Shown here piece by piece: positions 1 to 24,557 of a stretch of DNA of 64,000 nt (positions are counted from its first letter, which is position 1; each line of letters begins with the position of its first letter). Source of the DNA: a virus; IMG/VR virus record IMGVR_UViG_3300032893_000005, positions 1 through 64,000 of that record; one strand, given 5' to 3'. The position numbers and the translations under genes were made by a program. The notes beneath the pieces are model-generated. The model saw only the letters and a program-made list of their open reading frames with translations. It had not been told where the DNA came from and did no database searches.

Positions 1-3000
1 GTCTGAAACTGATCGTGGCCTCGCCTATCTTGAACGTGCTTACTGGCGTTGAACGAGCGAGTGCTGAAACCTGTGTCGTGCTCGCTGCCGCCTGGCCTAG
101 CAGAGTCATGGGCATGTTCTATGCTCTCTTGATGTTCAGAATGCAGCTTCTTCTCAACGTCTTCAGACAGCATGTCAGCCATGCGATGGCCTTCCTGCTG
201 CATCTTGGCCCAAGACTGCGTCAGGCGGTCTACCTTAGCCTTGTGAGCGTGCTTCAGGTACTGGTCGAAGGCCTTAGCTTGCTTGGCGCCAGAACTGTAC
301 GCTGCCTCGTGGATCTCAGGCAGACGGTTTAGAGCGTGAGCCATGCGCTGGCGCCCTTCCTGCGTGTTCACCACTTCACTTATGTGCCTTAACAGCTCAG
401 ACTTGTCATCGACCGGATACCCGTTGTCGACCATAGTGGCTCTGATAGCATGTAAGTCGTGTGGATGAACGAAGCTCAGGAGGTGGTCGACTGCGGGCTC
501 GCCGTGGTTGTCCATCAGGTAGTTGATGGGATACTCTAAGCCTTCGCTCTTGAAGATCTTAGAGTCAACGATTGCTCTAGCTGCTGCCGCATGGCGCTCC
601 CGCTCGACGTCGCTTAGCATACCGACATTCTTAGTGTCTTGAGCGCTAACACCAGCGAGCCGTGCGAGCTTAGGCTGCATCATGAACGCAGTTTTCTCGT
701 CCGACTGACGTTGCTCCGGCGTCATGGTAGAAGAAGCGGTAACTTGACCGAGCTGCTTCTGATACTCCCTCGGTGTCATACTGTCGGGTGTCATTAGTTG
801 ATGAGCGTACTCGTGCTCGGGCGAACCCCGCTCAGGCGTGAACAGAAGCTCGTTCTGCTTAGGGCCAACGCCGAAGCGATCTTGCCGGGACGCTCTCGCC
901 TTTATGCCTTGGCGTCCAAGCCAGCCGATGAAGCGCTTAGTGCGGTCATCGGAGCTTAAGTTCCGAGTCTTCTGACGCACGTTCTTCGAGCGCTTCTCTA
1001 GGACATCCTTCTCGGACGCCGCGAGCTGCTCATCTTCGTACTGAGTCAGGAAGTCGTGTAGTGGCTTCTGGGCAGGATGGAGGGCATCACGCTGAACCTT
1101 GAACCGGTTTTCCCAGATCAACTTCTTGGTAGCCGGAGACATGTTCGGCTGAGTCATGATGAGGTATCCAACGTCGCCGGGAGAATACTTTAGAGCTTTC
1201 TCGACGACCTTGTGCAGGAGTGGACCAGGAAGTTGGTTGACCGGCTCCTTACCATAACCGTGGTAGTGGTCTAAGCGTGACCAGCCGTTGTCCAGGGCAT
1301 TGACGTACTTCTCAACGACGTCAGCCGGTACGTCCGGGTGATTAACGATGGCCCTCTTGAGAGAAGACCTGTTGTTCCACGGAACCTGGTCAAACGAAGC
1401 GTGCAAGTTCCTGATCTCGTCAGGAGACATGCGATCGCGACGTATCAACTTCAGAGCCGAGTGGTCAAGCGGCGTCATGTTCATGTGATTGCGGCCTCTG
1501 GGAACTAACTGCATGACGTCAGACTCTTGAGCCGGTACAGGATTATGGCTAGAGACTAGGAACTCCTGCTCGTCGCCGTGATCGTCCGAAGAAGCTTCCT
1601 TAGGACCAACGTCGTACGAGTACCATACCTTACTGAGTGGAACCCATCGACGGTGTGCATGTTCTCCCAGAACTGGATGCTTCGTGTCAGAGTACGAAGC
1701 GAGAGCGTGGTCGGGTCCAGGAGTAGCGGTGCTGAGGCCACGAGTGAGGGCGACGCTGGGAACGCCGTTGACGTTCTTGATGTGCTGACCTGAGTATGTC
1801 TGAAGGAACTGATGTAACTTATTCTTGTGCTGGATGAGTTCGGCAGCCAATCCTTGAGCCTCGGCGACGAACTTCCTTAGAGCTGTCTTCCCGATGAGCC
1901 CGTTCTTCTTGCCCGCGTCACCCTTCTGATGATGAGTTAGGAAGTCAGAGTCGAGTACGTCCCTAGTTCCAGGATCAGCACCGTTGTAGGCATGTGCGTT
2001 TTCGATCCTGTGGATCATGTACTTGAGTGCCAACGCTCTTGGATGATGCGGTGAGTTCTTATATGACCGATAGAGGTCCTCAAGAGTAGCCTGGGGAGTT
2101 ATGGTCGTGTTTGGCTCGAGTTCGTCATTTTTCATCGGAAGATCTGGGTTATCGATCCGATGTTCTTCTTCGTCTGGATTATAGTCTGCCAATACCTTCT
2201 TAGGTTTGTAGTACGGGCCGACCTGACTCTCATCAATCACGTCTCCGTTAAGAGACTGCTGAAAGTTTGCGAACTCTTGTCCTGCGGGAGAGAAGTCTTT
2301 CCTAAGGTCTTCAAGACTGTCTTCACTCTTCTTGACCTTACTGAAACCGCGATCGTTGTAGCGAGCAAGCTCCTCGTCACCTCCACGATCGTGCTTCGCC
2401 TGATCCCAAGGATCGTCGAAGTGCATCTCTCGAACGGTAGGAACGTGCTTCCCTTCCTTCAACTCTTCGCCGTCTATGTGGTGACGGAAGTAGAGCGAGT
2501 TGCCGTGCTTGTCGCGTATGCCTGTGTAGAAGTCTTCGGGAGGCTCGGTGAACCACTGAGTGCCAGAGCCCTCGAGGTACTTGCCAGCATTTGGGCCATT
2601 GTAGAAGAAGAGCTTATGGTTGAACCCGTCAGACTCGATCGCACTCTCTTGGCCGTGCGCCTTGGCAATCTTGTGAAGAAGCTCAATGTTCTTAGGGCTT
2701 CTGACCATGATGGAGTTCTCAGGCGCACCGTAGTGTCCTTCTACCATCTGAGCATCTTCGCCTAGGTTCTTGAGTCGATCAACGACTTCTTCCGGCGTGC
2801 CCGAGGTCTGCTTAGGGTACATCGGGTTTTCGACAGTGAACAGGAAGTGATGTCCGAGAGTATGATCCTCAGACTTCTTCAGCAGAGAAGCCTTCTCGTG
2901 ATGCTCGGGCCGGATCTGCTCCTCAGCCTCGATCTCCTGAGGATGAAAGATGGCTACGACGTTACTCATCGTGCCGTGGCCAGAGTTCGTGAAGCCGTGG

Positions 3001-3329
3001 TAGCCGCGATCCTTGATCGCCTGCAGGTACTCGTCAGAAGTGACGAGGCCGGGGTTGGTGGTCTGGCCGGAGTTCTTCAGCTCTTGGTAGATGCTGTCTG
3101 GATCTTTGTAGACGTCGTAGATTCGCTGGCCAGGATGCAATGTTGCCCGATAGACGTGCGAGGCGCCGCTGGTTACGACGTTCTCTGGCGTAGTACCTTC
3201 AAGGTACCAATAACTACGAGTTACAGATGGAACTCCTTGTTTATTTTCTTCAGCAGGAGCGCCAGTCCCCTGCATCTCGGGGTTAATGGACTTAAGGTTT
3301 GACTTACGTGAATAATGAATTAGTTTCAT
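1..3329 (-). CDS. Modular polyprotein A (3'-truncated by window, >1100 aa): ART-like / SAM lyase-like / RSE-type ADP-ribosyltransferase / HExxH zincin / further module
   Basis: Not in the ORF track because it has no stop in the window. Hand translation from ATG 3329 (MKLIHYSRKSNLK..., ATGA overlap with the upstream stop) stays open to position 1. Motifs: GHYGAPENS..AKAHGQESAI, TRG..SYS..EQE, HEYAH. Linkers: LLKKSE, VKKSE, LAASE..LEKRS, IFKSE. Confidence 0.85.
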   Translation of the reverse strand, partial: MKLIHYSRKSNLKSINPEMQGTGAPAEENKQGVPSVTRSYWYLEGTTPENVVTSGASHVYRATLHPGQRIYDVYKDPDSIYQELKNSGQTTNPGLVTSDEYLQAIKDRGYHGFTNSGHGTMSNVVAIFHPQEIEAEEQIRPEHHEKASLLKKSEDHTLGHHFLFTVENPMYPKQTSGTPEEVVDRLKNLGEDAQMVEGHYGAPENSIMVRSPKNIELLHKIAKAHGQESAIESDGFNHKLFFYNGPNAGKYLEGSGTQWFTEPPEDFYTGIRDKHGNSLYFRHHIDGEELKEGKHVPTVREMHFDDPWDQAKHDRGGDEELARYNDRGFSKVKKSEDSLEDLRKDFSPAGQEFANFQQSLNGDVIDESQVGPYYKPKKVLADYNPDEEEHRIDNPDLPMKNDELEPNTTITPQATLEDLYRSYKNSPHHPRALALKYMIHRIENAHAYNGADPGTRDVLDSDFLTHHQKGDAGKKNGLIGKTALRKFVAEAQGLAAELIQHKNKLHQFLQTYSGQHIKNVNGVPSVALTRGLSTATPGPDHALASYSDTKHPVLGEHAHRRWVPLSKVWYSYDVGPKEASSDDHGDEQEFLVSSHNPVPAQESDVMQLVPRGRNHMNMTPLDHSALKLIRRDRMSPDEIRNLHASFDQVPWNNRSSLKRAIVNHPDVPADVVEKYVNALDNGWSRLDHYHGYGKEPVNQLPGPLLHKVVEKALKYSPGDVGYLIMTQPNMSPATKKLIWENRFKVQRDALHPAQKPLHDFLTQYEDEQLAASEKDVLEKRSKNVRQKTRNLSSDDRTKRFIGWLGRQGIKARASRQDRFGVGPKQNELLFTPERGSPEHEYAHQLMTPDSMTPREYQKQLGQVTASSTMTPEQRQSDEKTAFMMQPKLARLAGVSAQDTKNVGMLSDVERERHAAAARAIVDSKIFKSEGLEYPINYLMDNHGEPAVDHLLSFVHPHDLHAIRATMVDNGYPVDDKSELLRHISEVVNTQEGRQRMAHALNRLPEIHEAAYSSGAKQAKAFDQYLKHAHKAKVDRLTQSWAKMQQEGHRMADMLSEDVEKKLHSEHQESIEHAHDSARPGGSEHDTGFSTRSFNASKHVQDRRGHDQFQ

Positions 3330-3925
3330 GGCAATACAAACCTAACTCTTCCGTCTATCAAGACTTTCTTGCGCCTTCGTATAGAGGCAGCATGATTGCG
3401 AACGTGCCCTGCTGACTTTTTTCGTCCCAGTGCGGCCTTGGAAAGTTTCTCTTTATGTTCTTCGCTTAGAGGCCTGCCTTTCATCTTAGACGGTTTACCG
3501 GCCCTAGCCAATACACGCTTCTGAATATGTTCTGCGGACTGCTTTCTGCCACGCCAGTGGCTGGTGCCCGGTTTAAACTCAGTAGAAGGGCTAGCATGTT
3601 TGCCTTTATTAGCAATGGAGATTTTTTCCTTTACTACTTCAGACTTCTTTACTCCAGCAGATCCTTCTCCTCCCACAGACATATTAGCTTCGCAATACCC
3701 GAGGCTTTTATATAGGCGTATGAGTTCAATCTCCTTATCGAAGGCTTGTTTTTCCGTGAGATTTTTCGCAACAAACTCAAGCCTGCATTGAGTAAACTTC
3801 ATGATGTTTTTGAAGTAGCGGTTCCTGCCATCACTTTTCTTGTAAGCTCTCTTGCCGCATCCTTTACCTACGTAAAATGGGGTATTGGTATCTAATCTGA
3901 TATATCTATAAACGTAAAAGTTCAT
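3326..3925 (-). CDS. GIY-YIG homing endonuclease with NUMOD3-type repeats
   Basis: FYVY...FYVGKG..R..E..N; C-terminal SEEHKEKLS-like repeats; AT-richer than neighbours; 4-nt overlaps at both ends. Confidence 0.88.
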   Translation of the reverse strand: MNFYVYRYIRLDTNTPFYVGKGCGKRAYKKSDGRNRYFKNIMKFTQCRLEFVAKNLTEKQAFDKEIELIRLYKSLGYCEANMSVGGEGSAGVKKSEVVKEKISIANKGKHASPSTEFKPGTSHWRGRKQSAEHIQKRVLARAGKPSKMKGRPLSEEHKEKLSKAALGRKKSAGHVRNHAASIRRRKKVLIDGRVRFVLP

Positions 3926-4335
3926 AAATTACCACCGCCTAAGTCTTCCTGAGGAGTGGTGTACTGGAACTTACTGTCGTGGTCGTCCTGAGCCCGCTGA
4001 AGCAACTGGAAGTACTCGGGCTTAAGGACCTCGTCCTTGTGAGTCCACTCTTCCGGCTTGAACTTCTGAGCATGCTCTTCCCTTGCTTCGTGAAGCGCCT
4101 GGTCAAACTCAGCCTGACCTTCCGGGTCATCGCTGTAGTGATCGCGAAACACTTGAGGAGAGAAGTCGGCCATGTGGTGCTCGAACGCCAAGTTATGGTC
4201 AACGTAGTTGCTACGATGTAGGCCGTAGTTGTGTGCCCTGAACTTCTTCCGGTGCTCGTTGAGTGCGTTCTCGTAGTCTGACTTCGCCTTGAACTGCTTG
4301 AGGATGCCGACGACGTAGTTAGGATCGTTCATCAT
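3922..4335 (-). CDS. Hypothetical protein (His/Asp-rich, possible virion cargo)
   Basis: 137-aa ORF, strong SD (GGAGGAGG), overlaps the end of polyprotein B. Confidence 0.7.
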   Translation of the reverse strand: MMNDPNYVVGILKQFKAKSDYENALNEHRKKFRAHNYGLHRSNYVDHNLAFEHHMADFSPQVFRDHYSDDPEGQAEFDQALHEAREEHAQKFKPEEWTHKDEVLKPEYFQLLQRAQDDHDSKFQYTTPQEDLGGGNL

Positions 4336-7300
4336 CGCCTCCTCCCTTGTTCAAGTCTACCTCTTCTTCTTCGGATGCCGCGAGCTTGTCGTCGTCATCC
4401 TTGAAGCGTATCTTATCACCAAACATCTTCTTCTGTCGACGCTCTTCGATTTGACGCGCCCTGGCATGCTCTGGGTTATCGATCCAGCCTTGCAGAGGGT
4501 GAAAGATGATCTTCCTTGAGAGAACGTCCTCGATGCGCTGCCTGTTCTCGGGAGTGAGGAAGCGAGACTGACGAACTAGGTCAACCCACTTCTCCTTCTT
4601 CTTGCCGATGTTAACTCGAGTGCCAATTACTTGTGGAGGATCTTCAACTGACATGTACGGTGGAGCATCTTTACCTTCGGCTTCTGTGTAATACTTGTTG
4701 GCAGGAAGTCCAAGGTAGCGCCGGATCAACTGCTCAGCAGCCATAGGCTGAACTTCAGCGGAGTGCTTCTTCTGCTTCATGTACCCGTACTGACTCTGGA
4801 TGTCAGAGTACTGCTTGTCCATCAAAGACTGACCTGCCTTAAGGCCAACTCCCTTAGGAAGAAGCATCAAGTGAGCGATCTCATGGATCATGGCGTTCGG
4901 GTTCCACTGAGCCTCGAGCCTACCGCTTCTCCAGTCAGGCTTGTCTTCGCCTGGCTTGTCGTATCCAGGGCGGCGCTTGTTCTTCTTCTCGTCCCACTTA
5001 CCGCCGGACGGGTGAATCTTGAGCTGTAGGAAGTCTTGCGCGAACTTAGAGATATGCTTCATGTGCTTCTCGCGCATCTCAGATCCTGCGGGAGGTTGAT
5101 CCTTGGTTCCGAACACGTCGGCACGCTGCTCGCGGACGTTCTTCGACTTGTTCAACTCTTCGGACTTTCCGAACTGTTCCCTGCCGAGGTCTTCTTGCTG
5201 ATACTCCGAAGCTGCCAGTCGGCGAGGAGCCCGCCAGAGAGTATCGCTTTCCCTCCACATCTCGATCGGGTGAGTCTTAACCTTGATCGACGATGGATCA
5301 GCGATGAACCGATCGTAGACGTGCTTAGGAACGCTGATGTGTGGGATGTAGTTCGGAAACTTGTCAGGTCCGAGGTATTCCTCGAGGCCTTTGTGAACGT
5401 CCTGCATCCACTGCGGATGCTTCGTGAGCTTCAGTACGTGGTAGCGACCGTTCGGAGTATCGAAGATGTGAGGCTGAAGCTCGAACTTGTCTGGAACCAT
5501 GTGGGCCGTAGGTCCAAAGTAGTAGTCCAGGAAGTGCTTGCTTGGAGGATGCTCACCGGCGTGGCGTAGGGTTATGTGGTAGCGATGTCCGGTGACCGGA
5601 TCGCGAGTCTCGTCGTTGATCGTGACCGGCCACATCAGGTATGAGTGACCGTAATCCTTTTCGATGTGTGGAAAGTCCTTGTAGCGCCCAACTATGGGCT
5701 CGCCGACGTAGTCTGGCTCGCTCTTCTTTACCTTCATCTCTTCCCAGGTAGCGGGTTCATGAAAGAACTGATCCTCATAACCCTTCAGACTAGGATGTCC
5801 TAACTTACCCTTGGTAGGTACAAGTTCAGCCTGAACATGAGTATCTCCCCTCTTCTGAGCTGCGAGTACTCTATGATAGCCGTTAAGTAGATACATCTTT
5901 CCGTCTTTAACATGGACACCAACAGCTACCGGCTTGTCACTTACCTTAAAATCAGGAGTCCAATAAAAAGTCTTATGAGCATTTGCAACTCCTCCCGGAT
6001 CTTGATGGAGGTCTGAGATCTGGACCGTGGCAGGTTTTCGATAAACTTTCTTCTTGGCCTTATCTAGGTCATGCTCTGAGGCTGCGAGTTTCTCGGGCTT
6101 AGGCATGTAATCGGAGAAGTGACCGCGAAAGATAGAGTTGTGCTGCGGTTGGGAAGCGTCGGCAACGTAAACTTGATGGCGTTGACTTTCTTGATTGGGA
6201 TCTTTGGCGTATCGTCCAATCAACCCCTTCAGACCAGGGACGGATCTGAAGGAGAGCCACACTTTATGAGCTGCCGGTGAGACCCACGTATCAGACGACA
6301 GTCCTTGTTCCATTCCTTTCCCGTGAAGAAGTGCTGCTAGATAGGCTTGCTTACCGAGCCCTTTACCTCTCCACAACGGATGAACTTCAGACCACTGGAC
6401 TACGTTGGGTACCGTTCTTCCAGCGCCATGATACTCAGGGCCTTCGTTGGCTGTATGTACAACCGCTACGTTGGTATCGTATCCAGGATGAAAGATAGTG
6501 TGGACAAAGTTGTTTTCGTGCGGGAGCGCCTTCTTGTGCTGGTATTGACGGTATTGTAAACCATTAGGCAGCTTGACATTGTGAATGAGTTTATATTCTC
6601 TGCTATCATTGAAGATGTCATAGTCATGAGTTGCGTTCGAGGGATCTTGCTCATAGTCATACTGAAAGGGAGTCTTGCGAAGCGCCTCTGACTTCTTCAC
6701 GTCATCTTCGAGGGCGTTATGAGTGACGGTCTTGTAAGCAAGGTCCGGCAAGAGACCGGCCTTCTGATCTGCGTAGATTGTCTGGTGTGGGTTTGCGCGG
6801 TTATGCTCACCGTGCGGGCCGAAGTTGACCCAGGAGTTCTGACCGCGAGTTTCAGAAGTGAGGGCCTTCTGCGCCTCCGGCGAGTACATCTGCATGTGAT
6901 GTCGCCAAGCGTTCTCCTCACCGTTCGGACCAAAGCCGAAGCCTTCCTTCGCGTGACCGAAGTAGTCGTGCACGATCCTAAACATGTCGTTCGCCATCAT
7001 CGGCTTGCCGTGCTCGTCGAGGTGCTGAGTTGTCTGAAGCATTGGATGGGACTGGTCTACCTCGGCACCGGCTCCGTAACCGGTGCTGGTCGGGTAGTAC
7101 CACATGTGGTTGTTGTTTTCGATGTCGTGGAAGAGGTCTTTGGAGCCGTTCTTGTACGGGTTCTCCATGCCAGCAGGCATGGGCTCGATCTTTAAGCCGG
7201 TATTCTTGATGTGGGCGTACTGATCGCCGGTCTCGCGGACGAGCGCGTCGTACGCGGACTTCACTTCCGGGTGACTCGGGTCATGCTTCATCTGGTGGTA

Positions 7301-7510
7301 GGCGAGGGCGATCTTGGCAGCGTGATCACGATCAACCTTGACAGGCGCGATTGCATGGTTAAGCTGGATACCGCGTTGCGCGGCGTACTGGTCGGCGACC
7401 TGTCGGATGCGATCGTTCGGACGAGACTGCGCCTTCTCCAACTTCTCTTGGAGCTTCTGGGCCAGGACGACTTTGAAGAGGAGATCGACTTTAGACCGGA
7501 GATCAGGCAT
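4319..7510 (-). CDS. Modular polyprotein B (~1063 aa): HDxxGH metallopeptidase-like / GNAT / ParB-Srx-like / 2H phosphoesterase (Acb1-like) / HExxH zincin
   Basis: Motifs RIVHDYFGH..GEE; VHPLWRGKGLG; LLNGYHRVLA; YHITL..PHIS; HEIAH. ATG 7510 preceded by GGAG; LAASE / xxKS linkers between domains. Confidence 0.85.
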   Translation of the reverse strand: MPDLRSKVDLLFKVVLAQKLQEKLEKAQSRPNDRIRQVADQYAAQRGIQLNHAIAPVKVDRDHAAKIALAYHQMKHDPSHPEVKSAYDALVRETGDQYAHIKNTGLKIEPMPAGMENPYKNGSKDLFHDIENNNHMWYYPTSTGYGAGAEVDQSHPMLQTTQHLDEHGKPMMANDMFRIVHDYFGHAKEGFGFGPNGEENAWRHHMQMYSPEAQKALTSETRGQNSWVNFGPHGEHNRANPHQTIYADQKAGLLPDLAYKTVTHNALEDDVKKSEALRKTPFQYDYEQDPSNATHDYDIFNDSREYKLIHNVKLPNGLQYRQYQHKKALPHENNFVHTIFHPGYDTNVAVVHTANEGPEYHGAGRTVPNVVQWSEVHPLWRGKGLGKQAYLAALLHGKGMEQGLSSDTWVSPAAHKVWLSFRSVPGLKGLIGRYAKDPNQESQRHQVYVADASQPQHNSIFRGHFSDYMPKPEKLAASEHDLDKAKKKVYRKPATVQISDLHQDPGGVANAHKTFYWTPDFKVSDKPVAVGVHVKDGKMYLLNGYHRVLAAQKRGDTHVQAELVPTKGKLGHPSLKGYEDQFFHEPATWEEMKVKKSEPDYVGEPIVGRYKDFPHIEKDYGHSYLMWPVTINDETRDPVTGHRYHITLRHAGEHPPSKHFLDYYFGPTAHMVPDKFELQPHIFDTPNGRYHVLKLTKHPQWMQDVHKGLEEYLGPDKFPNYIPHISVPKHVYDRFIADPSSIKVKTHPIEMWRESDTLWRAPRRLAASEYQQEDLGREQFGKSEELNKSKNVREQRADVFGTKDQPPAGSEMREKHMKHISKFAQDFLQLKIHPSGGKWDEKKNKRRPGYDKPGEDKPDWRSGRLEAQWNPNAMIHEIAHLMLLPKGVGLKAGQSLMDKQYSDIQSQYGYMKQKKHSAEVQPMAAEQLIRRYLGLPANKYYTEAEGKDAPPYMSVEDPPQVIGTRVNIGKKKEKWVDLVRQSRFLTPENRQRIEDVLSRKIIFHPLQGWIDNPEHARARQIEERRQKKMFGDKIRFKDDDDKLAASEEEEVDLNKGGGDDERS

Positions 7511-7521
7511 AGACACTCCAG

Positions 7522-7540
7522 ATTAAGATGCTGGCCTAAA
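7522..7540 (-). promoter_or_regulatory. Putative late promoter TTTA-N7-ATCTTAAT upstream of polyprotein operon
   Basis: Minus strand TTTAggccagcATCTTAAT; same motif at four other structural-gene 5' ends. Confidence 0.65.
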
Positions 7541-7552
7541 GTGGCGAAACTC

Positions 7553-8119
7553 TTAGGAGTTCCGAAGGGTTATCTTGTTGGATTTAGATCGATTTTCAGC
7601 AGCGGGAAGAACCTGTAAGTTCCACGGAACATGAAGACCTGATACGTTTTCACCCTGCAGTGGTATGATATGGTCAACGTCCATAGCCACACCAAACTCT
7701 TTGGTGAGCCTCACCGCAGCATCGTAGAAGATCTCGATCTGCTGAAAGTGAGTCTCGGTAAGCCAAGGAGGGGTACGTTGGAGCTTAGCAAGGTCGTGCT
7801 TGGCAGCCTTGGCGCGTGCCTTAGCTGGATTACGTCTTTGCCAACGAGTAGAATGCAGAGTATGGGCCTCGGGATGACTCTTTCTCCAAGCCTCTCTTTG
7901 CTTAGATCGCTTTTCTACATTTTTTTGATAAAGAGATGAAAAACACGCCTTACAAGTACGCTGCAAACCATCGCCATTACAGCGATTTTTATGGAAACTG
8001 TCGAGAGATTTTTTATTTTTGCAAATTGAACAGTGTTTAAGGTGTGCTGAGCCGGACGCTACTCCGGCGGCATGCGTACTAGAGTTCATGCTTTCGCAGA
8101 TTACCTCTGTCTTCGGCAT
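7553..8119 (-). CDS. HNH homing endonuclease with N-terminal CxxC zinc module
   Basis: CSIC..CKAC; VDHIIPL..GLHVPWNL..N..KSN. Confidence 0.88.
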   Translation of the reverse strand: MPKTEVICESMNSSTHAAGVASGSAHLKHCSICKNKKSLDSFHKNRCNGDGLQRTCKACFSSLYQKNVEKRSKQREAWRKSHPEAHTLHSTRWQRRNPAKARAKAAKHDLAKLQRTPPWLTETHFQQIEIFYDAAVRLTKEFGVAMDVDHIIPLQGENVSGLHVPWNLQVLPAAENRSKSNKITLRNS

Positions 8120-9947: not shown

Positions 9948-9966
9948 ATTAAGATCTTGAGCTAAA
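9948..9966 (-). promoter_or_regulatory. Putative late promoter
   Basis: Minus strand TTTAgctcaagATCTTAAT. Confidence 0.65.
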
Positions 9967-11244: not shown

Positions 11245-11467
11245 GAGTAAGGCTCTAGGAGAGGTGTCTGCCAAGGTCAGAAACCTGATCTTGGAGTTAC
11301 CGGAGCCGAGCATGATGTCCAAGGAGGAAGAAGGGTACTTGAAGCAGGCCGTGACCGGCGTGCTGGCAGTCCTTGAGTCGCGCGGGACAATCCGCCGTGG
11401 CTTTGAGTTCAACATCAACTTCGTCCATATGGGCGTCGACTTCACACATCCCGATGATAGAGCCTAA
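11237..11467 (+). CDS. Hypothetical protein
   Basis: Coupled ORF MSESKALG... Confidence 0.55.
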   Translation: MSESKALGEVSAKVRNLILELPEPSMMSKEEEGYLKQAVTGVLAVLESRGTIRRGFEFNINFVHMGVDFTHPDDRA

Positions 11468-13589: not shown

Positions 13590-13590
13590 C

Positions 13591-13941
13591 ATGACAGACA
13601 AGGAAAAACTTCTGAACTTGGACAGTACGATCGCGTCACTCAGAGAGATACGGGCTGAGCTGAAGAAGAAGATCGACAAGGCGCCGAAGGATATGATGGA
13701 CGAGCTGGAAGACATCGTAGGTGACTTCCTGAACCGCAACGAGAAGGCGGTCATTACCAGGATCTTCGTCCCAGCACACAAGGCCGAGAAGTGGCTCGTC
13801 GACAGGATCGAAGCAACAAAGAAAGATCCAGAAGCGGGTATGTTCGCCGGACTCACCGGTGTCGTACTTCACAACGGCGGTCAGTTCTACGCAACCACTT
13901 GGGGAGGCGACAGCTACCGGCTCCTCGTCGAGTACCCTTAA
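13591..13941 (+). CDS. Hypothetical protein
   Basis: 116-aa ORF with GGAGG SD. Confidence 0.6.
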   Translation: MTDKEKLLNLDSTIASLREIRAELKKKIDKAPKDMMDELEDIVGDFLNRNEKAVITRIFVPAHKAEKWLVDRIEATKKDPEAGMFAGLTGVVLHNGGQFYATTWGGDSYRLLVEYP

Positions 13942-14002: not shown

Positions 14003-15391
14003 TTACTGAGTAAGGTTGTCGACCAGCATGTTGAAGCGGGGAAGCTTCACGACAGCGGTACAGAACCGGAAGTATGCCTTCGGCATGGTCAAGTCTGTGC
14101 GAGCAAGCTCGTAGGACTTGAAGGGCGAGAGTTCGGAGATCTCCAAACCGCGCATGTCGAGGGCGAAGCCAGTCACGAAGCCGGGGACGCGGTTGTTGAG
14201 GTCGTTGAAGACCACAGCCGAGGAGCCCATAGCTTTTACGCGACCGATGTACTGGGTAGCGGTTCCGTTGGCCAGCGAGCGGTACACGTTGTAGTACAAC
14301 ACGCGGGGACCAGCGTTCGGAGTGATGGTCAGGTTGACCTGGTTACCGGTAGCGGCGATCGTAGCAGCGGGCGACAACGAGGCAGCGGGCGACTCACCGA
14401 CTTCGTTTACTGCAGTAGCGATGTACTGGTAAACTTCGCCAGCGTTGAAGCTGGTCGAGGCAGCGGCCTGAGCCGAAGCCAAGGAGGGAGCAGCGGGCGA
14501 ACCGACGAGGACGCGGGCCGGAGCGGTCTTACCAGACAAGAACCGGCTGGACTCGAGGCTGATGGCACCGCCAGCAACGAACTGTTCTTTGAGAGTCGCG
14601 CCAGTGGCGTGCTGGGGAGAACCAGCCAAGAAGATGCGTTCCTTGTTGAACGCGATCTTGTTGTAAGCCGAGAGAGTCAAGGGGTCCAGGTAGATCTTCT
14701 CAGGAGCACCGTGGTTCATCTGCGTACGAGCGTACACATCTTCGATCGTGGTCTGAGTGAGCTGACCGTTCTGGTTCAACTGAACCGACTGGTTGGCACC
14801 GTACTCAGAGAACATCAAGTCCTTAGCGCTGTCGAGGTAGTCGCCGATGCGGATCTGGGGGTCCAGACCTTGCATGCCGGGTTCTTGCTCGGCCATCGCC
14901 AACGGGTTACCGTCGAAGGCACCGCTGTCGGAGTAAGCGGACTTACCACGGAACAGGTGGAACTCGATGTCACCGGCGATCTTTAAGGCTGCGTCAGCGT
15001 CAGCGCGATCTTCCGAGTTCACACCGTCAAAGGTCTGAACCAGAGTCGACTGGAGAGTAACCCGACGGATGTGGACGTAGTAGGCCATCGGAACCACTGC
15101 ACGAATGTACGTGCTGGTATGTTCTTGACCGACTGCACCTTCGTTAACGGCTGATCCGCCGAAAACACCGTAGTCGAGTTGACGGTTGAACTGAACAAGC
15201 GTCCCTTTAGCGGGAGTGGATTTGAAAATCCGTTGCAGCTTGATCATCTGATCTGTGAACGTAGCCACGTTCATGACCGGACTGAGGTCCTCCATCTGGA
15301 GGGCTGAACCTTGGGTGAGAGACGACGGTTGAGCATTATACCCACCGGCTTCAATCGTCTTTCTTAGTTCTTCAACTTGTTGTTGCAACAC
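14003..15391 (-). CDS. Major capsid protein (Twort/SPO1-like, with Ig/FN3-like insertion)
   Basis: N-terminal ELRK/TIEAGG...GSALQMEDL; IEFHLFRG; inserted YQYIATAVNEVGES..YNVYRS; downstream of scaffold; strong SD with GTG start. Confidence 0.9.
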   Translation of the reverse strand: MLQQQVEELRKTIEAGGYNAQPSSLTQGSALQMEDLSPVMNVATFTDQMIKLQRIFKSTPAKGTLVQFNRQLDYGVFGGSAVNEGAVGQEHTSTYIRAVVPMAYYVHIRRVTLQSTLVQTFDGVNSEDRADADAALKIAGDIEFHLFRGKSAYSDSGAFDGNPLAMAEQEPGMQGLDPQIRIGDYLDSAKDLMFSEYGANQSVQLNQNGQLTQTTIEDVYARTQMNHGAPEKIYLDPLTLSAYNKIAFNKERIFLAGSPQHATGATLKEQFVAGGAISLESSRFLSGKTAPARVLVGSPAAPSLASAQAAASTSFNAGEVYQYIATAVNEVGESPAASLSPAATIAATGNQVNLTITPNAGPRVLYYNVYRSLANGTATQYIGRVKAMGSSAVVFNDLNNRVPGFVTGFALDMRGLEISELSPFKSYELARTDLTMPKAYFRFCTAVVKLPRFNMLVDNLTQ

Positions 15392-15408: not shown

Positions 15409-16434
15409 TTACTGAATCACTTTTAACAGTTCGGGTGAACGCTTTCCTGTGGCATAGAAGTCCAGGATTGCGTCATGTTCTTTCTTCGAGAAGGTAGCGA
15501 GCTTCTTGTTGTCAGAAGTCACATCCTTCAGCTTCTTCGTGATGTCCTCTTTGGACATCTTCTCGACTTCGGCCTTCTTCAAGGCCTCTTCGCCGCGATC
15601 AACGAACTGTACGTCAGTGATGCTGTTGGCAGCACGAACCTTCGGACGGTTGATCATGTGCGAGACGATGGCGGTCATGTCACCGAGAGCCTTCTTCAGC
15701 TCTTCGTTTTCCTTCTCGGCCTTCGTCATGCGCTCTTCAGCTTTAGCGAGCTTCTCGCCAACTTCCTTCTCAGCCATAGCCATTGCCATAGCGGGAGCAG
15801 GAGCTTGGGCGGGAGCGCCGGGAGCAGCGGGCGAACCTTGAGGAGCAGCGGCAGAACCCGAGGCAGAAGCCATGCGGGCTTCCATCTCAGCCTTCACCTT
15901 CTGGCTCAGCTCTTGAAGCATGTCGTCGTCCAACTGTTGAAGTTGGCTTTCGATGCTTTCCAGCTCAGCACCGGCGGCGGGAGCCGACTCGGACGGAGCG
16001 GGAGCAGATGCAGAGGGGTCGGCAGCGGGGCTCGAAGCAGAAGCCGAAGCTTCGGGAGCTTGCGACTCGTATCCAGAACCTGAAGAAGACTCGTCGTCTT
16101 TCTTCATGCTGGCCGAGCTGGACGAGCTTGAGGACTCTTCACGCTTGGCAACACTGGAACTCGAGCTGGACGAAGAAGACTCTTCACCCTTCTCAACAGA
16201 CTTGCCCTTGGCGTTGCCGGGGCTGTCAGAGTTCAGTTCTTTGCCAGGACGCGATTCAGAGATCGGTTTGGTCTTGTTCGAGGGCTGCGCAGAGTCTGCG
16301 TTCAGCTCCTTGCCAGGACGCGAGAGATCTGCTTTGTTCAGATCTGTGCCTTCCGGCTGAGTTTTCAGAAGTTTCTGGACTTCAGTACTAACTTCAGCGA
16401 GAAGAGCTTTAATGTCGACGTTTTCAACTGACAT
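15409..16434 (-). CDS. Capsid scaffolding protein
   Basis: Low-complexity Ser/Ala/Pro plus coiled coil, many LxK-A/T sites, immediately upstream of MCP. Confidence 0.75.
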   Translation of the reverse strand: MSVENVDIKALLAEVSTEVQKLLKTQPEGTDLNKADLSRPGKELNADSAQPSNKTKPISESRPGKELNSDSPGNAKGKSVEKGEESSSSSSSSSVAKREESSSSSSSASMKKDDESSSGSGYESQAPEASASASSPAADPSASAPAPSESAPAAGAELESIESQLQQLDDDMLQELSQKVKAEMEARMASASGSAAAPQGSPAAPGAPAQAPAPAMAMAMAEKEVGEKLAKAEERMTKAEKENEELKKALGDMTAIVSHMINRPKVRAANSITDVQFVDRGEEALKKAEVEKMSKEDITKKLKDVTSDNKKLATFSKKEHDAILDFYATGKRSPELLKVIQ

Positions 16435-17063: not shown

Positions 17064-18014
17064 TTAGATGGCCTTAAATAAACGCTCGTAAATTACCGTA
17101 AACTCCTGCTCATACCGCTTGAGGCGGCGCTGACGGAGAACCTTCATGATGTTTCCGATCTGCTGTTCCTTCAGGCCGGGTACGGCTGCGGAGATCAGGT
17201 CGCGGCTTATCGGCTTCTCACCTAAAGCGGACTCGAGCTTGTCGAGGTGCGACTTGGACGTCTGCAGGGCCGAGCCCTGAGAGAGTGCAGAGGGAGCGGC
17301 GTTCATACCACCGGCGGCGATCGTCTTCTTGAGTTTACGCAAAGCGTTCGTCAAGCCGAAGTCGTCCAGTACGAAGAACTGACGCTCGTTGTTGAAGCTA
17401 GTTAGGAAAACACTACCGTCCTGGGACGCCTTGGTAACTACCTCGGGCGTGGTGTCTCGCGACGCTGTGTCTTTGATAACCGCTTGAATAACCGCTGCTT
17501 TATTGCATGGCTTGGCCGTAGCCGCCACGCGCCGGATGATGGTTTCCTTAAGGTTACCACCTTCCCGCTTAAGGACGTTACCCTCGACCGAGAACCCGAT
17601 CATGTGATCGAAGTTGCCGTCGCGGGCCTGTCGGATGATCGCTGAAGCCGCCTGAGCATTCGGATGATCCGGCGAGTCAAAGAACTCACAGTATCCGAAG
17701 ATCAGGGGAACCTTCAGGTCGTTCCACGCCTTCTTCTCGAGGTCGTTGTCACAGTCTTCTTCGCCGAAGATCTTCTTGGCGTCCATGACTCGACCGACTA
17801 TCGTATTGAAACCTCTCTCTTTTTCAGCATTGGTGCTCTCAAGATCATCCTTGCCAAGGTCGTCGGGGTTGACGTGCTCGGTGTTGATCGGCGCGTTGCC
17901 GTTCTTGAGCGAACTTATGTCGGCGCCCTTGACGTCGAGCGTCTCGCCGGAGGTATCCGGGCACTCGGCGGTAAGTACGGCAGCAACGACTATGTTCTTC
18001 CTAAGAGCTTCCAT
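17064..18014 (-). CDS. Prohead (maturation) protease
   Basis: D.SGE...INTEH...GFSVEG...VAAT.KPCN (HK97/U35-like His/Ser motifs); lies between portal and scaffold. Confidence 0.85.
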   Translation of the reverse strand: MEALRKNIVVAAVLTAECPDTSGETLDVKGADISSLKNGNAPINTEHVNPDDLGKDDLESTNAEKERGFNTIVGRVMDAKKIFGEEDCDNDLEKKAWNDLKVPLIFGYCEFFDSPDHPNAQAASAIIRQARDGNFDHMIGFSVEGNVLKREGGNLKETIIRRVAATAKPCNKAAVIQAVIKDTASRDTTPEVVTKASQDGSVFLTSFNNERQFFVLDDFGLTNALRKLKKTIAAGGMNAAPSALSQGSALQTSKSHLDKLESALGEKPISRDLISAAVPGLKEQQIGNIMKVLRQRRLKRYEQEFTVIYERLFKAI

Positions 18015-18022
18015 GATCCACT

Positions 18023-18041
18023 ATTAAGATCTAGGCTTAAA
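18023..18041 (-). promoter_or_regulatory. Putative late promoter for protease
   Basis: TTTAagcctagATCTTAAT, 8 nt from the ATG. Confidence 0.65.
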
Positions 18042-20266: not shown

Positions 20267-20492
20267 GGTAAGGTTCTGCTGGGAATGTGGGCGAAAACTT
20301 TGGGGTAACGGCCACGTAAGTGCGACGCTCAAGGCTGACGGCCATGAGAGGGTGATGCATAAGGGATGCTTTGAGGAGAACAAGGCTGACTTTACTGAGG
20401 CCCGCGTTGTTTCGCGATCTCGTCGTGACCCTTCCCAACGTAGATCACCTTCCCGCGTGAATCGAAGCCAAATCCAGGCATTAAAACAGTGA
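20247..20492 (+). CDS. Small zinc-finger protein
   Basis: CWEC...HKGC; 3' end overlaps the convergent MuF-like gene. Confidence 0.5.
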   Translation: MSTEKPRVRFCWECGRKLWGNGHVSATLKADGHERVMHKGCFEENKADFTEARVVSRSRRDPSQRRSPSRVNRSQIQALKQ

Positions 20493-21213
20493 CGACGTCC
20501 CGACAGTTTGGGTGAGTAAGCGTAACAGATGGGTTACGACTGCCAGATTTCTTGCCTGGATCAGCTACAAGCTCAGACATGTAGTACAGGCGCGGTGTAA
20601 CGCGGTCTTCCATAGTCCAAAGTCGCCAGCAGTCCGTGCATCTCTTGTCATCTAAGACACCAATCTTGAATACGACGGGGTCAGAGATCCCGATTCTTTG
20701 CGCGACTGCTAAGATACCGTCGGCTGAGCCTATGTTCTGCGAGTTCGACAGCTCAACTTGAGTGATGCCGTCGACTGCCTTCACGATCTTCTTACGCTGG
20801 GACTCGAGTTCGTCGCGTACGCCGTCAAGTATCTTCTGACCGTCCTCAGTCTTGAGCCAGCTTGCCGGATCTTGCTTGTCTATCTTGCTCTTCCGGTTAG
20901 CTTCGTCGAGCGCGTCAGACACGGTTCGTACGGTATCAGCCTGAACCTTTGCCTTCATCGAGTCGAGGTACTGGCTGGTAACTGCTTCAAGCTTCTTGAT
21001 GCTGGTCTGGTCAGGGAACTGAGTGCCAGCCCCATGGATGGAGTTGGCGTGAAGGTACGCGTGGAGGATAGTGGCCTTCGGATCGTAGTCGCGCATCTGG
21101 AAGATCATGCTGCGAGCGACTGACTGGGGTCCGACGAGGCGGATCTTCGCGTTGTTGAAGTACATGTCGACGATGCTGATGATGATCTTACGTAGTGCTT
21201 CAGTCATGGTCAT
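20392..21213 (-). CDS. MuF/SPP1 gp7-like minor head protein
   Basis: D.RCTDC...HPNCR; directly after portal. Confidence 0.75.
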   Translation of the reverse strand: MTMTEALRKIIISIVDMYFNNAKIRLVGPQSVARSMIFQMRDYDPKATILHAYLHANSIHGAGTQFPDQTSIKKLEAVTSQYLDSMKAKVQADTVRTVSDALDEANRKSKIDKQDPASWLKTEDGQKILDGVRDELESQRKKIVKAVDGITQVELSNSQNIGSADGILAVAQRIGISDPVVFKIGVLDDKRCTDCWRLWTMEDRVTPRLYYMSELVADPGKKSGSRNPSVTLTHPNCRDVVTVLMPGFGFDSRGKVIYVGKGHDEIAKQRGPQ

Positions 21214-24538: not shown

Positions 24539-24557
24539 ATTAAGATCTGGCGATAAC
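24539..24557 (-). promoter_or_regulatory. Putative late promoter for portal operon
   Basis: GTTAtcgccagATCTTAAT. Confidence 0.6.

What the first reader, a model, noticed from the sequence alone, without database searches (positions are those of the whole stretch)
1..7510. Candidate head-packaged counter-defence polyproteins cut by the prohead protease
Seen: two ~1100-aa proteins made of unrelated ~100-250-aa modules, with a short recurring linker at every boundary. B: LEKA 7430; VKKSEALRKT 6671; LAASE..LDKA 6056-6088; VKKSE 5717; LAASE..FGKSEELNKS 5144-5218; LAASE..LNKG 4343-4384. A: LLKKSE 2868; VKKSE..LRKD 2295-2336; LAASE..LEKRS 984-1025; IFKSE 543. The same hydrophobic-x-K-[S/A/T/G] motif occurs at the capsid N-terminus (LRK/T), repeatedly in the scaffold, and in portal (LKKA, LTKA) and protease (VTKA, LKKT). 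The operon sits behind the same late motif as the head genes. Known: Twort/SPO1-like capsid proteins lose a short propeptide after Lys (e.g. Listeria phage A511 Cps, Lys/Ser). Inference: the polyproteins are loaded into the prohead, cut into separate enzymes and injected with the DNA as a cassette-style anti-defence/host-takeover kit.
Basis: partly seen in the sequence, partly recalled or inferred. Interest (0 to 1): 0.92.

Follow-up and report, generated by a model that had tools for sequence, protein, structure and literature searches.

The report
Phage effector polyproteins with protease-site joints
Two long late proteins of an uncultured Mx1-like phage are chains of unrelated enzyme modules, and the short conserved linker between modules looks like the site where this phage lineage's capsid-maturation protease cuts, so the chains are probably loaded into the head, cut apart and injected, though no cut or packaging has been measured.

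Summary
The window is the first 64 kb of a 154-kb phage contig whose nearest named relative is Myxococcus phage Mx1.

- **The proteins.** B (4319-7516, minus strand) and A (3-3329, minus strand, cut by the contig end) are modular. Every module boundary carries phi-[K/A]-[K/A]-S-E, usually followed within 16 residues by phi-x-K-[G/A/S/T].
- **Enrichment.** [KA]SE occurs 27 times in the proteome and 11 of those are in A+B (p=8e-9).
- **Modules are real units.** Independent homology shows the modules are shuffled. Some are separate genes in relatives that share the capsid family.
- **What they are.** They are phage-type polyvalent proteins (Iyer et al. 2017).
- **What is new here.** The joints resemble Lys-type prohead-protease sites:
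  - Capsid K11|T12 aligns with K24|S25, where the mature phage 812 capsid chain starts.
  - The protease has a T4 gp21-like fold and an invariant Lys at a copy of that site.
  - Relatives' scaffolds and portal tails carry phi-x-K-S-E.
  - Relatives fuse the protease directly to effector modules across the same linker.
- **Limits.** Cleavage, packaging and injection remain inferred. Cutting by the polyproteins' own zincin modules is the main rival.
- **Context.** This scan has reported protease-jointed polyproteins on other genomes, mostly with Glu-type sites. This is a Lys-type, bipartite variant.

The parts
4319..7516 (-). Polyprotein B (P0001; 1065 aa from the GTG, probably 1063 aa from the ATG at 7510): leader, five modules and five linkers
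7433..7516 (-). B N-terminal leader, residues 1-28, ending in EKLEK|A. It lies outside the M1 homology footprint and is a candidate clipped targeting peptide.
   Evidence: inference
6701..7432 (-). B module M1 (residues ~29-272). A widespread uncharacterised polyvalent-protein domain (phrog_3170) with a confident model and no solved structural neighbour.
6674..6700 (-). B linker 1, VKKSEALRK (residues 273-281)
6089..6673 (-). B module M2 (residues 282-476), GNAT-like (RGKGLGK motif). Its nearest language-model clusters are viral GNAT acetyltransferases (score 0.91).
6059..6088 (-). B linker 2, LAASEHDLDK (residues 477-486)
5732..6058 (-). B module M3 (residues 487-595), ParB/Srx-like core (LNGYHR..AAQKRG). 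Support is weak.
5717..5731 (-). B linker 3, VKKSE (residues 596-600)
5219..5716 (-). B module M4 (residues 601-766), 2H phosphoesterase-like, with two H-x-T/S motifs and a phrog_755 'RNA ligase' hit (E=2e-4)
5147..5218 (-). B linker 4, double: LAASE..FGKSEELNK (residues 767-790)
4385..5146 (-). B module M5 (residues 791-1044), zincin-like with HEIAH. It starts SKNVREQ directly after L-N-K and is widespread in polyvalent proteins.
4322..4384 (-). B linker 5 and short C-terminal tail: LAASEEEEVDLNK|GGGDDERS
3..3329 (-). Polyprotein A (P0002, at least 1109 aa, cut by the contig end): five modules and four linkers
2868..2885 (-). A linker 1, LLKKSE (residues 149-154). In relative L002 this boundary is a gene boundary.
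2298..2336 (-). A linker 2, VKKSEDSLEDLRK (residues 332-344)
993..1025 (-). A linker 3, LAASEKDVLEK (residues 769-779), followed by a zincin-like module that starts RSKNVRQ and carries HEYAH
543..557 (-). A linker 4, IFKSE (residues 925-929)
7522..7546 (-). Late-promoter-like motif upstream of B (TTTAGG..GCATCTTAAT). It is a variant of TTA-N7-AGATCTTAAT, which is found 10 times before minus-strand late genes of this genome.
17064..18014 (-). Prohead protease (316 aa) with a gp21/assemblin fold. H47, S142 and K230 are invariant. Its C-terminal part copies the capsid cleavage site and N-arm.
14003..15391 (-). Major capsid protein (SPO1 gp6.1 / phage 812 family). The candidate maturation site is EELRK11|T12.
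15409..16434 (-). Scaffold-like acidic protein. phi-x-K-[STAG] occurs 7 times against 2.5 in shuffles.
21200..23281 (-). Portal protein. A conserved C-tail site reads EALTK|AE here, SLNK|SE in L002 and MISK|SE in Mx1.
20392..21213 (-). Portal-adjacent minor head protein. The N-terminus is MTMTEALRK|I. It resembles MuF/gp7 only by position and an HPNCR motif, and no profile hit supports this.
   Evidence: inference

Best explanation
A and B are phage-type polyvalent proteins: chains of unrelated effector enzymes drawn from a shared, shuffled pool of modules.

- **Expression.** They are expressed late, together with the virion genes.
- **The joints.** Modules are joined by a conserved bipartite linker. 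Element 1 is phi-[K/A]-[K/A]-S-E. Element 2 is phi-x-K followed by a small residue.
- **Who cuts (inferred).** The linker is read by the phage's own prohead protease, a Ser protease of the T4 gp21/assemblin fold. In this capsid lineage that protease cuts after Lys.
- **Proposed sequence of events (inferred).**
  1. The chains enter the prohead, either through an N-terminal leader or, in relatives, by direct fusion to the protease.
  2. They are cut at the joints into single-domain enzymes during head maturation.
  3. The enzymes leave the head with the DNA and act before any phage gene is expressed.

**Shown here:** modularity, linker conservation and enrichment, the late-gene context, the protease fold, and the site homology with a processed capsid.

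**Inferred:** cleavage, the exact scissile bond, packaging, injection, and the anti-defence role.
For: 1. **Modules and boundaries.**
   - 4812 representative proteins match B. The footprints are B ~25-262 and ~780-1020/1050, at any position in proteins of up to 3703 aa.
   - A_M1, A_M2 and A_M4 also occur in the proteins that were retrieved with B.
   - In L002, A_M1 and A_M2 are separate adjacent genes. In L006 their order is reversed, with MKKSE between them. In L008 they sit in a 2470-aa chain.
2. **Linker statistics.**
   - In this genome the SE-type linker is concentrated in A+B (p=8e-9 to 8e-10).
   - In 254 homologues, LAASE occurs 32 times against 0.8 in shuffles, and phi[KA][KA]SE 70 times against 6.9.
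   - About 60% of element-1 sites have phi-x-K-[GASTM] within 16 aa, against 10.6% at random positions.
   - Linker motifs are 3-5-fold enriched just outside the homology boundaries.
   - The next module starts right after the Lys, for example SKNVREQ.., GSLQRR.. and GLKGDW...
3. **Link to head maturation.**
   - The capsid belongs to the SPO1 gp6.1 / phage 812 family. The 439-aa phage 812 chain (9row) starts at S25 of the 463-aa chain (5lii), and our K11|T12 aligns on K24|S25. SPO1 has DALNK|A at that position.
   - The capsids of Mx1, L002, L006 and L008 all have L-x-K|A there.
   - The protease carries a copy of the site plus the capsid arm (75% identity over 24 aa). That Lys (K230) is invariant in 34 homologues, as are H47 and S142.
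   - Scaffolds of relatives are enriched in K-S-E: 8 against 0.97, 6 against 0.69, and 3 against 0.15.
   - The portal C-tail carries a conserved phi-x-K-[S/A]-E.
4. **Protease identity.** The best of 48,161 solved chains is T4 gp21 (Z 9.9, rmsd 3.5, 124 aligned). Next are the VZV protease (Z 8.9) and the HCMV protease (Z 6.9). Foldseek's top hits are herpesvirus assemblins.
5. **Physical link to the prohead.**
   - In Mx1 the protease is the N-terminus of a 1239-aa protein.
   - Nine further fusions of 574-1313 aa were found. P0246, P0222 and P0257 carry M1 or M5 behind a protease domain.
   - The junctions carry MKKSE..LAK|A-type linkers.
6. **Late context.** A variant late motif lies upstream of B, and the genes sit between the head and tail modules.
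7. **Class membership.** Relatives carry ART-PolyVal, NUDIX, GNAT and LPD38 domains. Iyer et al. predicted that such proteins are packaged and processed.
Against: - No experimental data exist for any phage of this lineage.
- Within this genome, the phi-x-K-[STAG] motif shared with the head proteins is only about 2-fold enriched in the head proteins and is not significantly enriched in A+B.
- The SE-type element is absent from this phage's own capsid, protease and scaffold.
- LAASE has no Lys, and A and K interchange at two positions. Element 1 may therefore be a recognition or structural element rather than a scissile site.
- A-type and K-type sites do not differ in how often they have a downstream Lys site (63% against 56%).
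- Nearly every long linker-bearing polyprotein also contains an HExxH module that could do the cutting.
- The mature start of the phage 812 capsid is read from PDB chain lengths, not from a paper I could retrieve.
- A has no obvious N-terminal leader.
Confidence: 0.55

Rival explanations
1. The polyproteins are cut at the linkers by their own zincin-like (HExxH) modules, in cis or in trans. This could happen inside the head or after injection, as Iyer et al. proposed for polyvalent proteins. The prohead protease plays no part.
For: - B has HEIAH and A has HEYAH, each in a module that begins right after a linker.
- Most long linker-bearing homologues, and Mx1's 1479-aa polyprotein, also contain an HExxH.
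- The metallopeptidase is the hub domain of polyvalent proteins and the published candidate for processing.
- Each linker starts with a hydrophobic residue. From my own knowledge, many zincins prefer a hydrophobic residue just after the cut.
Against: - The same motifs occur at conserved positions in the capsid N-terminus, the protease's own C-terminus (invariant Lys), scaffolds and portal tails. These are the classical prohead-protease substrates.
- Short linker-bearing proteins lack any HExxH, for example P0072.
- The B-type zincin module has no match in any deposited phage, including Mx1, whose polyprotein still has the linkers.
Confidence: 0.2
2. The linkers are not cut. They are conserved docking or spacer elements, for example helices that bind scaffold, protease or the capsid interior for loading. 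The polyproteins stay whole in the virion, like the N4 virion RNA polymerase.
For: - A and K interchange in element 1, which suits an exposed helix.
- The protease's C-terminal region mimics the capsid arm, which shows that this lineage uses sequence mimicry for co-assembly.
- Iyer et al. note that some polyvalent proteins are transferred at full length.
Against: - The element-2 Lys aligns with a capsid site after which the mature phage 812 chain begins.
- Modules begin immediately after that Lys in many homologues.
- The same modules exist as separate genes in relatives, so they work as separate proteins.
Confidence: 0.12
3. The prohead protease does cut the linkers, but after the Glu of S-E, as the T4 gp21 and phiKZ gp175 proteases do, not after Lys.
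For: - S-E is the invariant core of element 1, including LAASE, which has no Lys.
- The protease's closest solved fold is T4 gp21. From my own knowledge gp21 is Glu-specific.
- Mx1-like capsids have a conserved Glu three residues after the Lys.
Against: - The phage 812 mature chain starts directly after the Lys and has no Glu nearby.
- The protease's own site keeps the Lys in 34 of 34 sequences, but not a following Glu. This phage has KK|TIAAGG.
- This reading leaves element 2 unexplained.
Confidence: 0.1
4. A and B are late cytoplasmic multi-enzyme proteins that are never packaged. The resemblance of the linker to head-protein sites is compositional.
For: - The loose Lys motif is common, with 239 copies in the proteome.
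- No curated family was found for most modules.
Against: - The linker is conserved at the protein level with saturated synonymous change.
- Relatives fuse the same modules to the prohead protease itself.
- The genes sit in the virion gene block behind a late motif.
Confidence: 0.03

Closest known systems
Polyvalent proteins of phages and conjugative elements (Iyer, Burroughs, Anand, de Souza, Aravind 2017, PMC5512222)
   Same: - Long single polypeptides made of 2-15 unrelated effector domains drawn from a shuffled pool, including zincin peptidase, ParB-like, 2H, GNAT, ART and NUDIX.
- Encoded next to late virion genes.
- Predicted to be packaged, injected and processed into units.
- Relatives of A and B carry the Pfam families named for this class, ART-PolyVal and LPD38.
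   Different: - That work proposes the embedded metallopeptidase as the processing enzyme. It mentions assemblin-like peptidases only as rare C-terminal fusions, and its main text does not contain the word 'linker'.
- Here a sequence-defined bipartite joint matches the lineage's capsid-maturation site.
- In relatives the protease is fused at the N-terminus.
T4 internal proteins IPI-III and Alt (capsid-targeting sequence plus gp21 cleavage); own knowledge, also summarised
   Same: - Effector proteins made late, loaded into the prohead, trimmed by a gp21-fold prohead protease and injected with the DNA.
- The protease fold match is to gp21 itself.
   Different: - The T4 cargo proteins are single-domain, with one N-terminal site cut after Glu.
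- Here, chains of up to 5 or more enzymes have internal sites at every joint, probably cut after Lys.
phiKZ / SPN3US head and ejection proteins processed by gp175 / gp245 (PMC5694885, PMC10052503, PMC7411985; seen, abstracts only)
   Same: Many head-internal and ejected proteins are cut by the prohead protease at a short consensus, some at several sites.
   Different: - Different capsid and protease lineage.
- A Glu-type motif (from my own knowledge, S/A/G-x-E).
- The substrates are not described as shuffled enzyme cassettes with a standard joint.
Capsid maturation in SPO1/Twort-like (Herelleviridae) phages: phage 812 MCP, SPO1 gp6.1
   Same: - The capsid is homologous (E=3e-21 to SPO1 gp6.1).
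- The short N-terminal propeptide ends in Lys at the aligned position.
   Different: - This phage and Mx1 are a distant, higher-GC branch, with about 26% capsid identity to SPO1-like phages.
- I know of no report that Herelleviridae use this site as a joint in effector polyproteins.
Myxococcus phage Mx1 (OR576727.2; PMC10720576, a genome announcement)
   Same: - Nearest named relative: capsid 51% identity and protease 34%.
- Same capsid site, same arm mimic in the protease, and KKSE / LKSEDLDK / EKSEQWLAK linkers in a 1479-aa GNAT-ART-NUDIX-ParB polyprotein.
   Different: - In Mx1 the protease is fused to a 1000-aa extension, and the module sets differ.
- The record annotates these proteins only as 'NUDIX hydrolase', 'kinase' and 'putative prohead protease'.

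Membership tests
Phage-type polyvalent proteins (Iyer et al. 2017) | Several unrelated globular domains in one polypeptide | tested here: met
   - Five independent homology footprints were found in B and at least three in A. None of them crosses a linker in unrelated hits.
- M1 folds alone with pLDDT 91.8.
Phage-type polyvalent proteins (Iyer et al. 2017) | Domains recur in many different orders and combinations in other elements (shuffled pool) | tested here: met
   M1 and M5 occur at any position in proteins of 200-3703 aa. A_M1 and A_M2 are reversed, split or fused in L002, L006 and L008.
Phage-type polyvalent proteins (Iyer et al. 2017) | Hallmark domains (zincin MPTase, DdrB-like ParB, 2H, ART, RelA/SpoT, LPD families) | tested here: inconclusive
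   - Pfam and NCBIfam give no hit on A or B themselves.
- Motif-level or weak evidence supports a zincin (HExxH), a 2H domain (phrog_755, E=2e-4), a ParB-like core and a GNAT (pLM score 0.91).
- Homologues that share M1 carry ART-PolyVal, LPD38, NUDIX and ParBc.
Phage-type polyvalent proteins (Iyer et al. 2017) | Encoded among late or virion genes of a phage | tested here: met
   The genes lie between the head genes and the tail sheath block, on the same strand, behind a variant of the late motif.
Substrates of the prohead protease (head-internal cargo) | Carries the protease's cleavage motif at exposed sites | tested here: inconclusive
   - The motif matches the capsid site homologous to phage 812 K24|S25, the protease's invariant K230 site, relatives' scaffolds and the portal tail.
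- The specificity of this protease has not been measured.
Substrates of the prohead protease (head-internal cargo) | Present in virions as processed fragments | not testable with these tools
   This needs virion proteomics. No such data were found for Mx1.
gp21/assemblin-fold prohead proteases (for gene 17064-18014) | Assemblin-like fold | tested here: met
   - VIA-align against 48,161 chains: T4 gp21 5jbl_A (Z 9.9, rmsd 3.5, 124 aligned), VZV protease (Z 8.9) and HCMV protease (Z 6.9). The next unrelated rows score Z 6.0 or less.
- Foldseek's top hits are herpesvirus proteases, with probability up to 0.93.
gp21/assemblin-fold prohead proteases (for gene 17064-18014) | Conserved catalytic His and Ser; gene located between the portal and scaffold/capsid genes | tested here: met
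   - H47 and S142 are invariant in 34 homologues.
- The gene order is portal, minor head protein, protease, 158-aa protein, scaffold, capsid.
- phrog_1028 head maturation protease, E=9e-6.
SPO1 gp6.1 / phage 812 major capsid family | Sequence homology over the capsid, including the N-terminal arm | tested here: met
   9vel_C (SPO1 Gp6.1) E=3.1e-21; 5lii_P E=1.1e-7; phrog_752 E=3e-41.
SPO1 gp6.1 / phage 812 major capsid family | Short N-terminal propeptide removed after a Lys | tested here: inconclusive
   The alignment places K11|T12 on K24|S25, where the 439-aa phage 812 chain begins. Processing of this phage's capsid has not been observed.

The most novel reading that the evidence does not exclude
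In a large, mostly uncultured Mx1/SPO1-related phage lineage, the Lys-type prohead-protease site has become a standard bipartite joint (phi-[K/A][K/A]-S-E ... phi-x-K|small).

- Any enzyme module can be spliced through this joint into head-loaded chains, or onto the protease itself.
- The head protease would therefore act as the release mechanism for an exchangeable arsenal of injected effectors.
- The joint would also give a sequence rule for finding such cargo in metagenomes and for loading foreign proteins into capsids.
Probability: 0.45. Interest if true: 0.72.

Novelty: new variant of a known kind. Interest (0 to 1): 0.58.

Why it matters
- **It turns a prediction into a test.** Polyvalent proteins are a predicted but largely untested way for phages to deliver ready-made enzymes ahead of their genes. 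A defined joint that matches the capsid-maturation site makes the idea directly testable: mass spectrometry for neo-termini after the linker Lys, and protease co-expression. Myxococcus phage Mx1 is available as a cultured model.
- **It gives a search rule.** The joint offers a simple way to delimit and catalogue effector modules. One example is the widespread module M1. It matches 4812 representative proteins, has no Pfam family and no solved structural neighbour.
- **It suggests a tool.** The joint could be a portable tag for loading cargo into capsids.
- **It extends earlier reports.** The protease-jointed polyprotein theme, previously seen mainly with Glu-type sites, now reaches a Lys-type protease lineage.

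Tried and rejected
- **Sequence profiles.** Pfam and NCBIfam gave nothing above threshold for A or B. PDB sequence searches gave nothing for A, B or the protease.
- **DNA search.** A megablast of 1-7600 against deposited phages found no match.
- **Linkers as DNA-level recombination or duplication scars.** Rejected. The four LAASE and the K-S-E sites use different codons, including both Ser codon families.
- **LAASE-type against K-type sites.** I tested whether LAASE-type sites need a downstream Lys site more often than K-type sites. There was no difference (63% against 56%, p=0.63), so this does not discriminate between the cleavage readings.
- **Fold of module M1.** The model is confident, but there is no convincing neighbour. 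The best Foldseek hit is E 0.085 (aromatic amino-acid hydroxylases). The best VIA score is Z 3.3. The ESM Atlas returns only unnamed viral clusters.
- **A_M3 (residues 345-773).** It has no homologue among the fetched proteins and no language-model hit.
- **Literature.** I could not retrieve a paper stating the mature N-terminus of A511, phage 812 or SPO1 capsids, nor any virion proteome of Mx1. The linker words gave no hits.
- **Complex prediction.** The protease domain with B residues 258-300 returned no answer. This is not evidence either way.
- **Contexts of polyvalent proteins without the linker.** One contig had no DNA held. The other is a 51-kb phage of another type. This is too few to test whether linker type tracks head type.

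Full report
**Setting.** The window is bases 1-64000 of a single 154,091-bp contig. It has no near DNA match among deposited phages.

PHROG profiles identify, on the minus strand, a terminase (24571-26439), a portal (21200-23281), a head maturation protease (17064-18014) and a major head protein (14003-15391). The two long ORFs lie downstream on the same strand:
- B = 4319-7516.
- A = 3-3329, which runs off the contig start. If the contig is circular, A is 1133 aa.

B and A are separated by a 137-aa ORF and a free-standing GIY-YIG/NUMOD3 homing endonuclease. An HNH-type endonuclease lies just upstream of B.

The capsid is 51% identical to that of Myxococcus phage Mx1 and about 26% identical to SPO1-like Bacillus phage capsids. 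IMG/VR holds relatives with 63-70% capsid identity (L002-L005).

In a simple gene call of the whole contig (205 ORFs, 49,531 aa):
- [KA]SE occurs 27 times, 11 of them in A+B, which make up 4.4% of the residues (p=7.9e-9).
- LAASE is found only in A and B (4 of 4).
- KKSE is 4 of 5 in A and B.

The codons at the repeated linkers differ freely, so the conservation is at the protein level.

It has 239 copies, is only about 2-fold enriched in the five head proteins (p=0.003), and is not significantly enriched in A+B (p=0.06). The sharper E-x-LRK form is 5 of 7 in capsid, protease, the portal-adjacent protein, A and B.

**The modules are real and shuffled.** A profile-free search of B against 1.84 billion representative proteins gave 4812 hits. 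The hits fall into discrete footprints: B ~25-262 (M1) and ~780-1020/1050 (M5). These occur at any position in proteins of up to 3703 aa, and the edges coincide with the linkers at 273-281 and 767-790.

Local BLAST of each module against the fetched proteins shows the following:
- A_M1 occurs in 42 of them, A_M2 in 27 and A_M4 in 3, even though these proteins were retrieved with B.
- B_M2, B_M3 and B_M4 have 12, 4 and 3 hits.

Relatives that share the capsid family arrange the modules differently:
- In L002, A_M1 ends one gene and A_M2 is the next gene. A's LLKKSE boundary is therefore a gene boundary there.
- In L006 the two modules are in reverse order in one 413-aa protein, with MKKSE between them.
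- In L008 they are part of, or next to, a 2470-aa chain.

**What the modules are.** Neither protein has a Pfam or NCBIfam hit. The evidence for each module is:
- **B_M1:** phrog_3170. It is a very widespread domain without a Pfam family. It gives a confident model (pLDDT 91.8) with no convincing solved neighbour, and it has invariant Arg, His, Asp and His residues.
- **B_M2:** looks like a GNAT, with an RGKGLGK motif. Its nearest language-model clusters are viral GNATs (score 0.91).
- **B_M3:** has a ParB/Srx-like G-x-H-R core, shared with a region of P0227 that has faint ParB_N hits.
- **B_M4:** has two H-x-T/S motifs and a weak phrog_755 hit, which fits a 2H phosphoesterase.
- **B_M5 and A_M4:** carry HEIAH and HEYAH, so both look like zincins.
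- **A_M2:** is homologous to the N-terminal module of two proteins that have weak or faint S-AdoMet lyase hits.
- **A_M3 and A_M5:** remain unlabelled.

Homologues that share M1 carry NUDIX, ART-PolyVal, LPD38, lysozyme and ParBc domains. Mx1's '1479-aa NUDIX hydrolase' is a GNAT + ART-PolyVal + NUDIX + ParB-like chain.

This is the class defined by Iyer et al. 2017. They predicted packaging into the head, injection, and processing by the embedded metallopeptidase. They saw assemblin-like peptidases only as rare C-terminal fusions.

**The linker is bipartite and widespread.** In 254 fetched homologues (196,554 aa):
- LAASE occurs 32 times against 0.8 in shuffles.
- phi[KA][KA]SE occurs 70 times against 6.9.

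The contexts show a second element, [D/N/E]-L-x-K followed by G/A/S/M, within a few residues. The next module begins directly after the Lys, for example SKNVREQ (the zincin start), GSLQRR.. and GLKGDW... About 60% of element-1 sites have element 2 within 16 residues, against 10.6% at random positions. Both elements are 3-5-fold enriched just outside the homology boundaries. Only about 40 of the 254 proteins have the strict element 1, so the joint is specific to a lineage.

**Link to head maturation.**
1. **Capsid site.** HMMER aligns the capsid to SPO1 Gp6.1 (E=3e-21) and to the phage 812 capsid. The PDB holds a 463-aa chain (5lii) and a 439-aa chain (9row) of the phage 812 capsid. The offsets show that the shorter chain starts at S25, right after K24 (EDVVK|SFQTGYG). 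Our EELRK11|T12 aligns on that bond, and SPO1 has DALNK|A there. The capsids of Mx1, L002, L006 and L008 have ..L-[RKM]-K|A at the same place.
2. **The protease's own site.** Protease residues 228-251 are 75% identical to capsid residues 9-32. In an alignment of 34 homologues, the Lys before this arm copy (K230) is invariant, as are H47 and S142. The N-terminus M-x-x-L-[KR]-K-N is also conserved.
3. **Protease fold.** The protease model's best match among 48,161 solved chains is T4 gp21 (Z 9.9). Herpesvirus proteases follow (Z 8.9 and 6.9), and unrelated rows score 6.0 or less.
4. **Scaffolds.** Scaffolds of relatives are rich in phi-x-K-S-E:
   - L006 has 8 K-S-E against 0.97 in shuffles.
   - L008 has 6 against 0.69.
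   - Mx1 has 3 against 0.15.
   - phi-x-K-[STAG] is enriched in all five scaffolds, including this phage's own (7 against 2.5).
   - L006 and L008 are the contigs that encode the linker-rich proteins P0072 and P0227.
5. **Portal tail.** The portal C-tail has a conserved site: EALTK|AE here, SLNK|SE in L002 and MISK|SE in Mx1.
6. **Protease-effector fusions.**
   - In Mx1 the protease is the N-terminal part of a 1239-aa protein.
   - Nine further fusions of 574-1313 aa exist, some with PI3/4-kinase or GGDEF domains.
   - P0246, P0222 and P0257 place M5 or M1 behind a protease domain.
   - The junctions carry MKKSE..LAK|A-type linkers.

**Expression.** The motif TTA-N7-AGATCTTAAT occurs ten times on the minus strand, directly upstream of late genes including the protease and the sheath. 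B has the variant GCATCTTAAT 6 nt from its ORF.

**Mechanism and rivals.** The best reading is that the joints are sites for the prohead protease, cut after Lys. The chains would then be loaded into proheads, cut into single enzymes, and delivered with the DNA.

Entry into the prohead could be through a leader. B's first 28 residues lie outside M1 and end in EKLEK|A. Other relatives share an MSYKKVLK.. leader. In some relatives, entry could instead be by direct fusion to the protease.

The main rival is cutting by the embedded zincin. It cannot be excluded, because almost every long linker-bearing chain has an HExxH. It does not explain why the same motifs sit in the capsid, protease, scaffold and portal. 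It also does not explain the linkers in short proteins without a zincin, or in Mx1, which lacks the B-type zincin.

Other rivals are:
- A Glu-type cut after S-E. This fits LAASE and the gp21 fold, but not the phage 812 chain start or the invariant K230.
- A non-cleaved docking role for the linker.

Nothing here measures cleavage, packaging, injection or any anti-defence activity.

**Novelty.** The class (polyvalent proteins) and the principle (cargo trimmed by the head protease, as in T4 IPs/Alt and phiKZ-like ejection proteins) are both known. What appears undescribed is the defined Lys-type bipartite joint shared with the head-maturation substrates.

This scan has already reported protease-jointed polyproteins on many other genomes, mostly with Glu-type sites. 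It has also reported an Mx1-like protease-kinase fusion with the capsid-arm copy.

Noticed in passing
window 17064-18014 (-), protein residues 221-252: The prohead protease's C-terminal part repeats the capsid's cleavage site and N-terminal arm. Residues 228-251 are 75% identical to capsid residues 9-32, and this is conserved in 34 homologues and in Mx1. It may be a co-assembly mimic that is released by self-cleavage at the invariant K230.
   Followed up: partly
window 6701-7432 (-), B module M1: This domain matches 4812 representative proteins but has no Pfam family. The model is confident (pLDDT 91.8) with no solved structural neighbour. It has invariant R, H-D and H residues (FRxVHDYFGH), which suggests a metal-dependent enzyme of unknown activity.
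   Followed up: partly
window 3326-3925 (-) and 7553-8119 (-): Free-standing homing endonucleases flank or split the polyprotein genes. One is a GIY-YIG/NUMOD3 type between the 137-aa ORF and A. The other is an HNH/endonuclease VII type just upstream of B.
   Followed up: no
L002:4482-6320: In an IMG/VR relative, the portal-adjacent minor head protein is 612 aa instead of 273 aa. An intein-like insert with an endonuclease-like middle part sits between HPNC and SSNCRD.
   Followed up: no
window 2337-2867 (-), A module M2: This module is homologous to the N-terminal module of two relatives' proteins that carry weak or faint PF23780 S-AdoMet lyase hits. There is no direct profile hit on A itself.
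   Followed up: partly
window 7522-7529, 9948-9957, 18023-18032, 24539-24548, plus six more sites beyond the window (G000:C1 106509-153534): A late-promoter-like bipartite motif (TTA, 7-nt spacer, AGATCTTAAT) lies 6-58 nt upstream of minus-strand virion genes.
   Followed up: partly
G000:C1:151059-152354 (-), outside the window: A 431-aa Lys/Pro/Ala-rich protein lies between A (in circular order) and the tail sheath. It contains LPKSE, AKASE and MDK|A sites and may be a further head-internal protein.
   Followed up: no
window 11373-13941 (+): Two plus-strand genes (738 aa and 116 aa; the 738-aa one hits phrog_3169, function unknown) interrupt the otherwise minus-strand late operon between the capsid gene and the downstream genes.
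   Followed up: no
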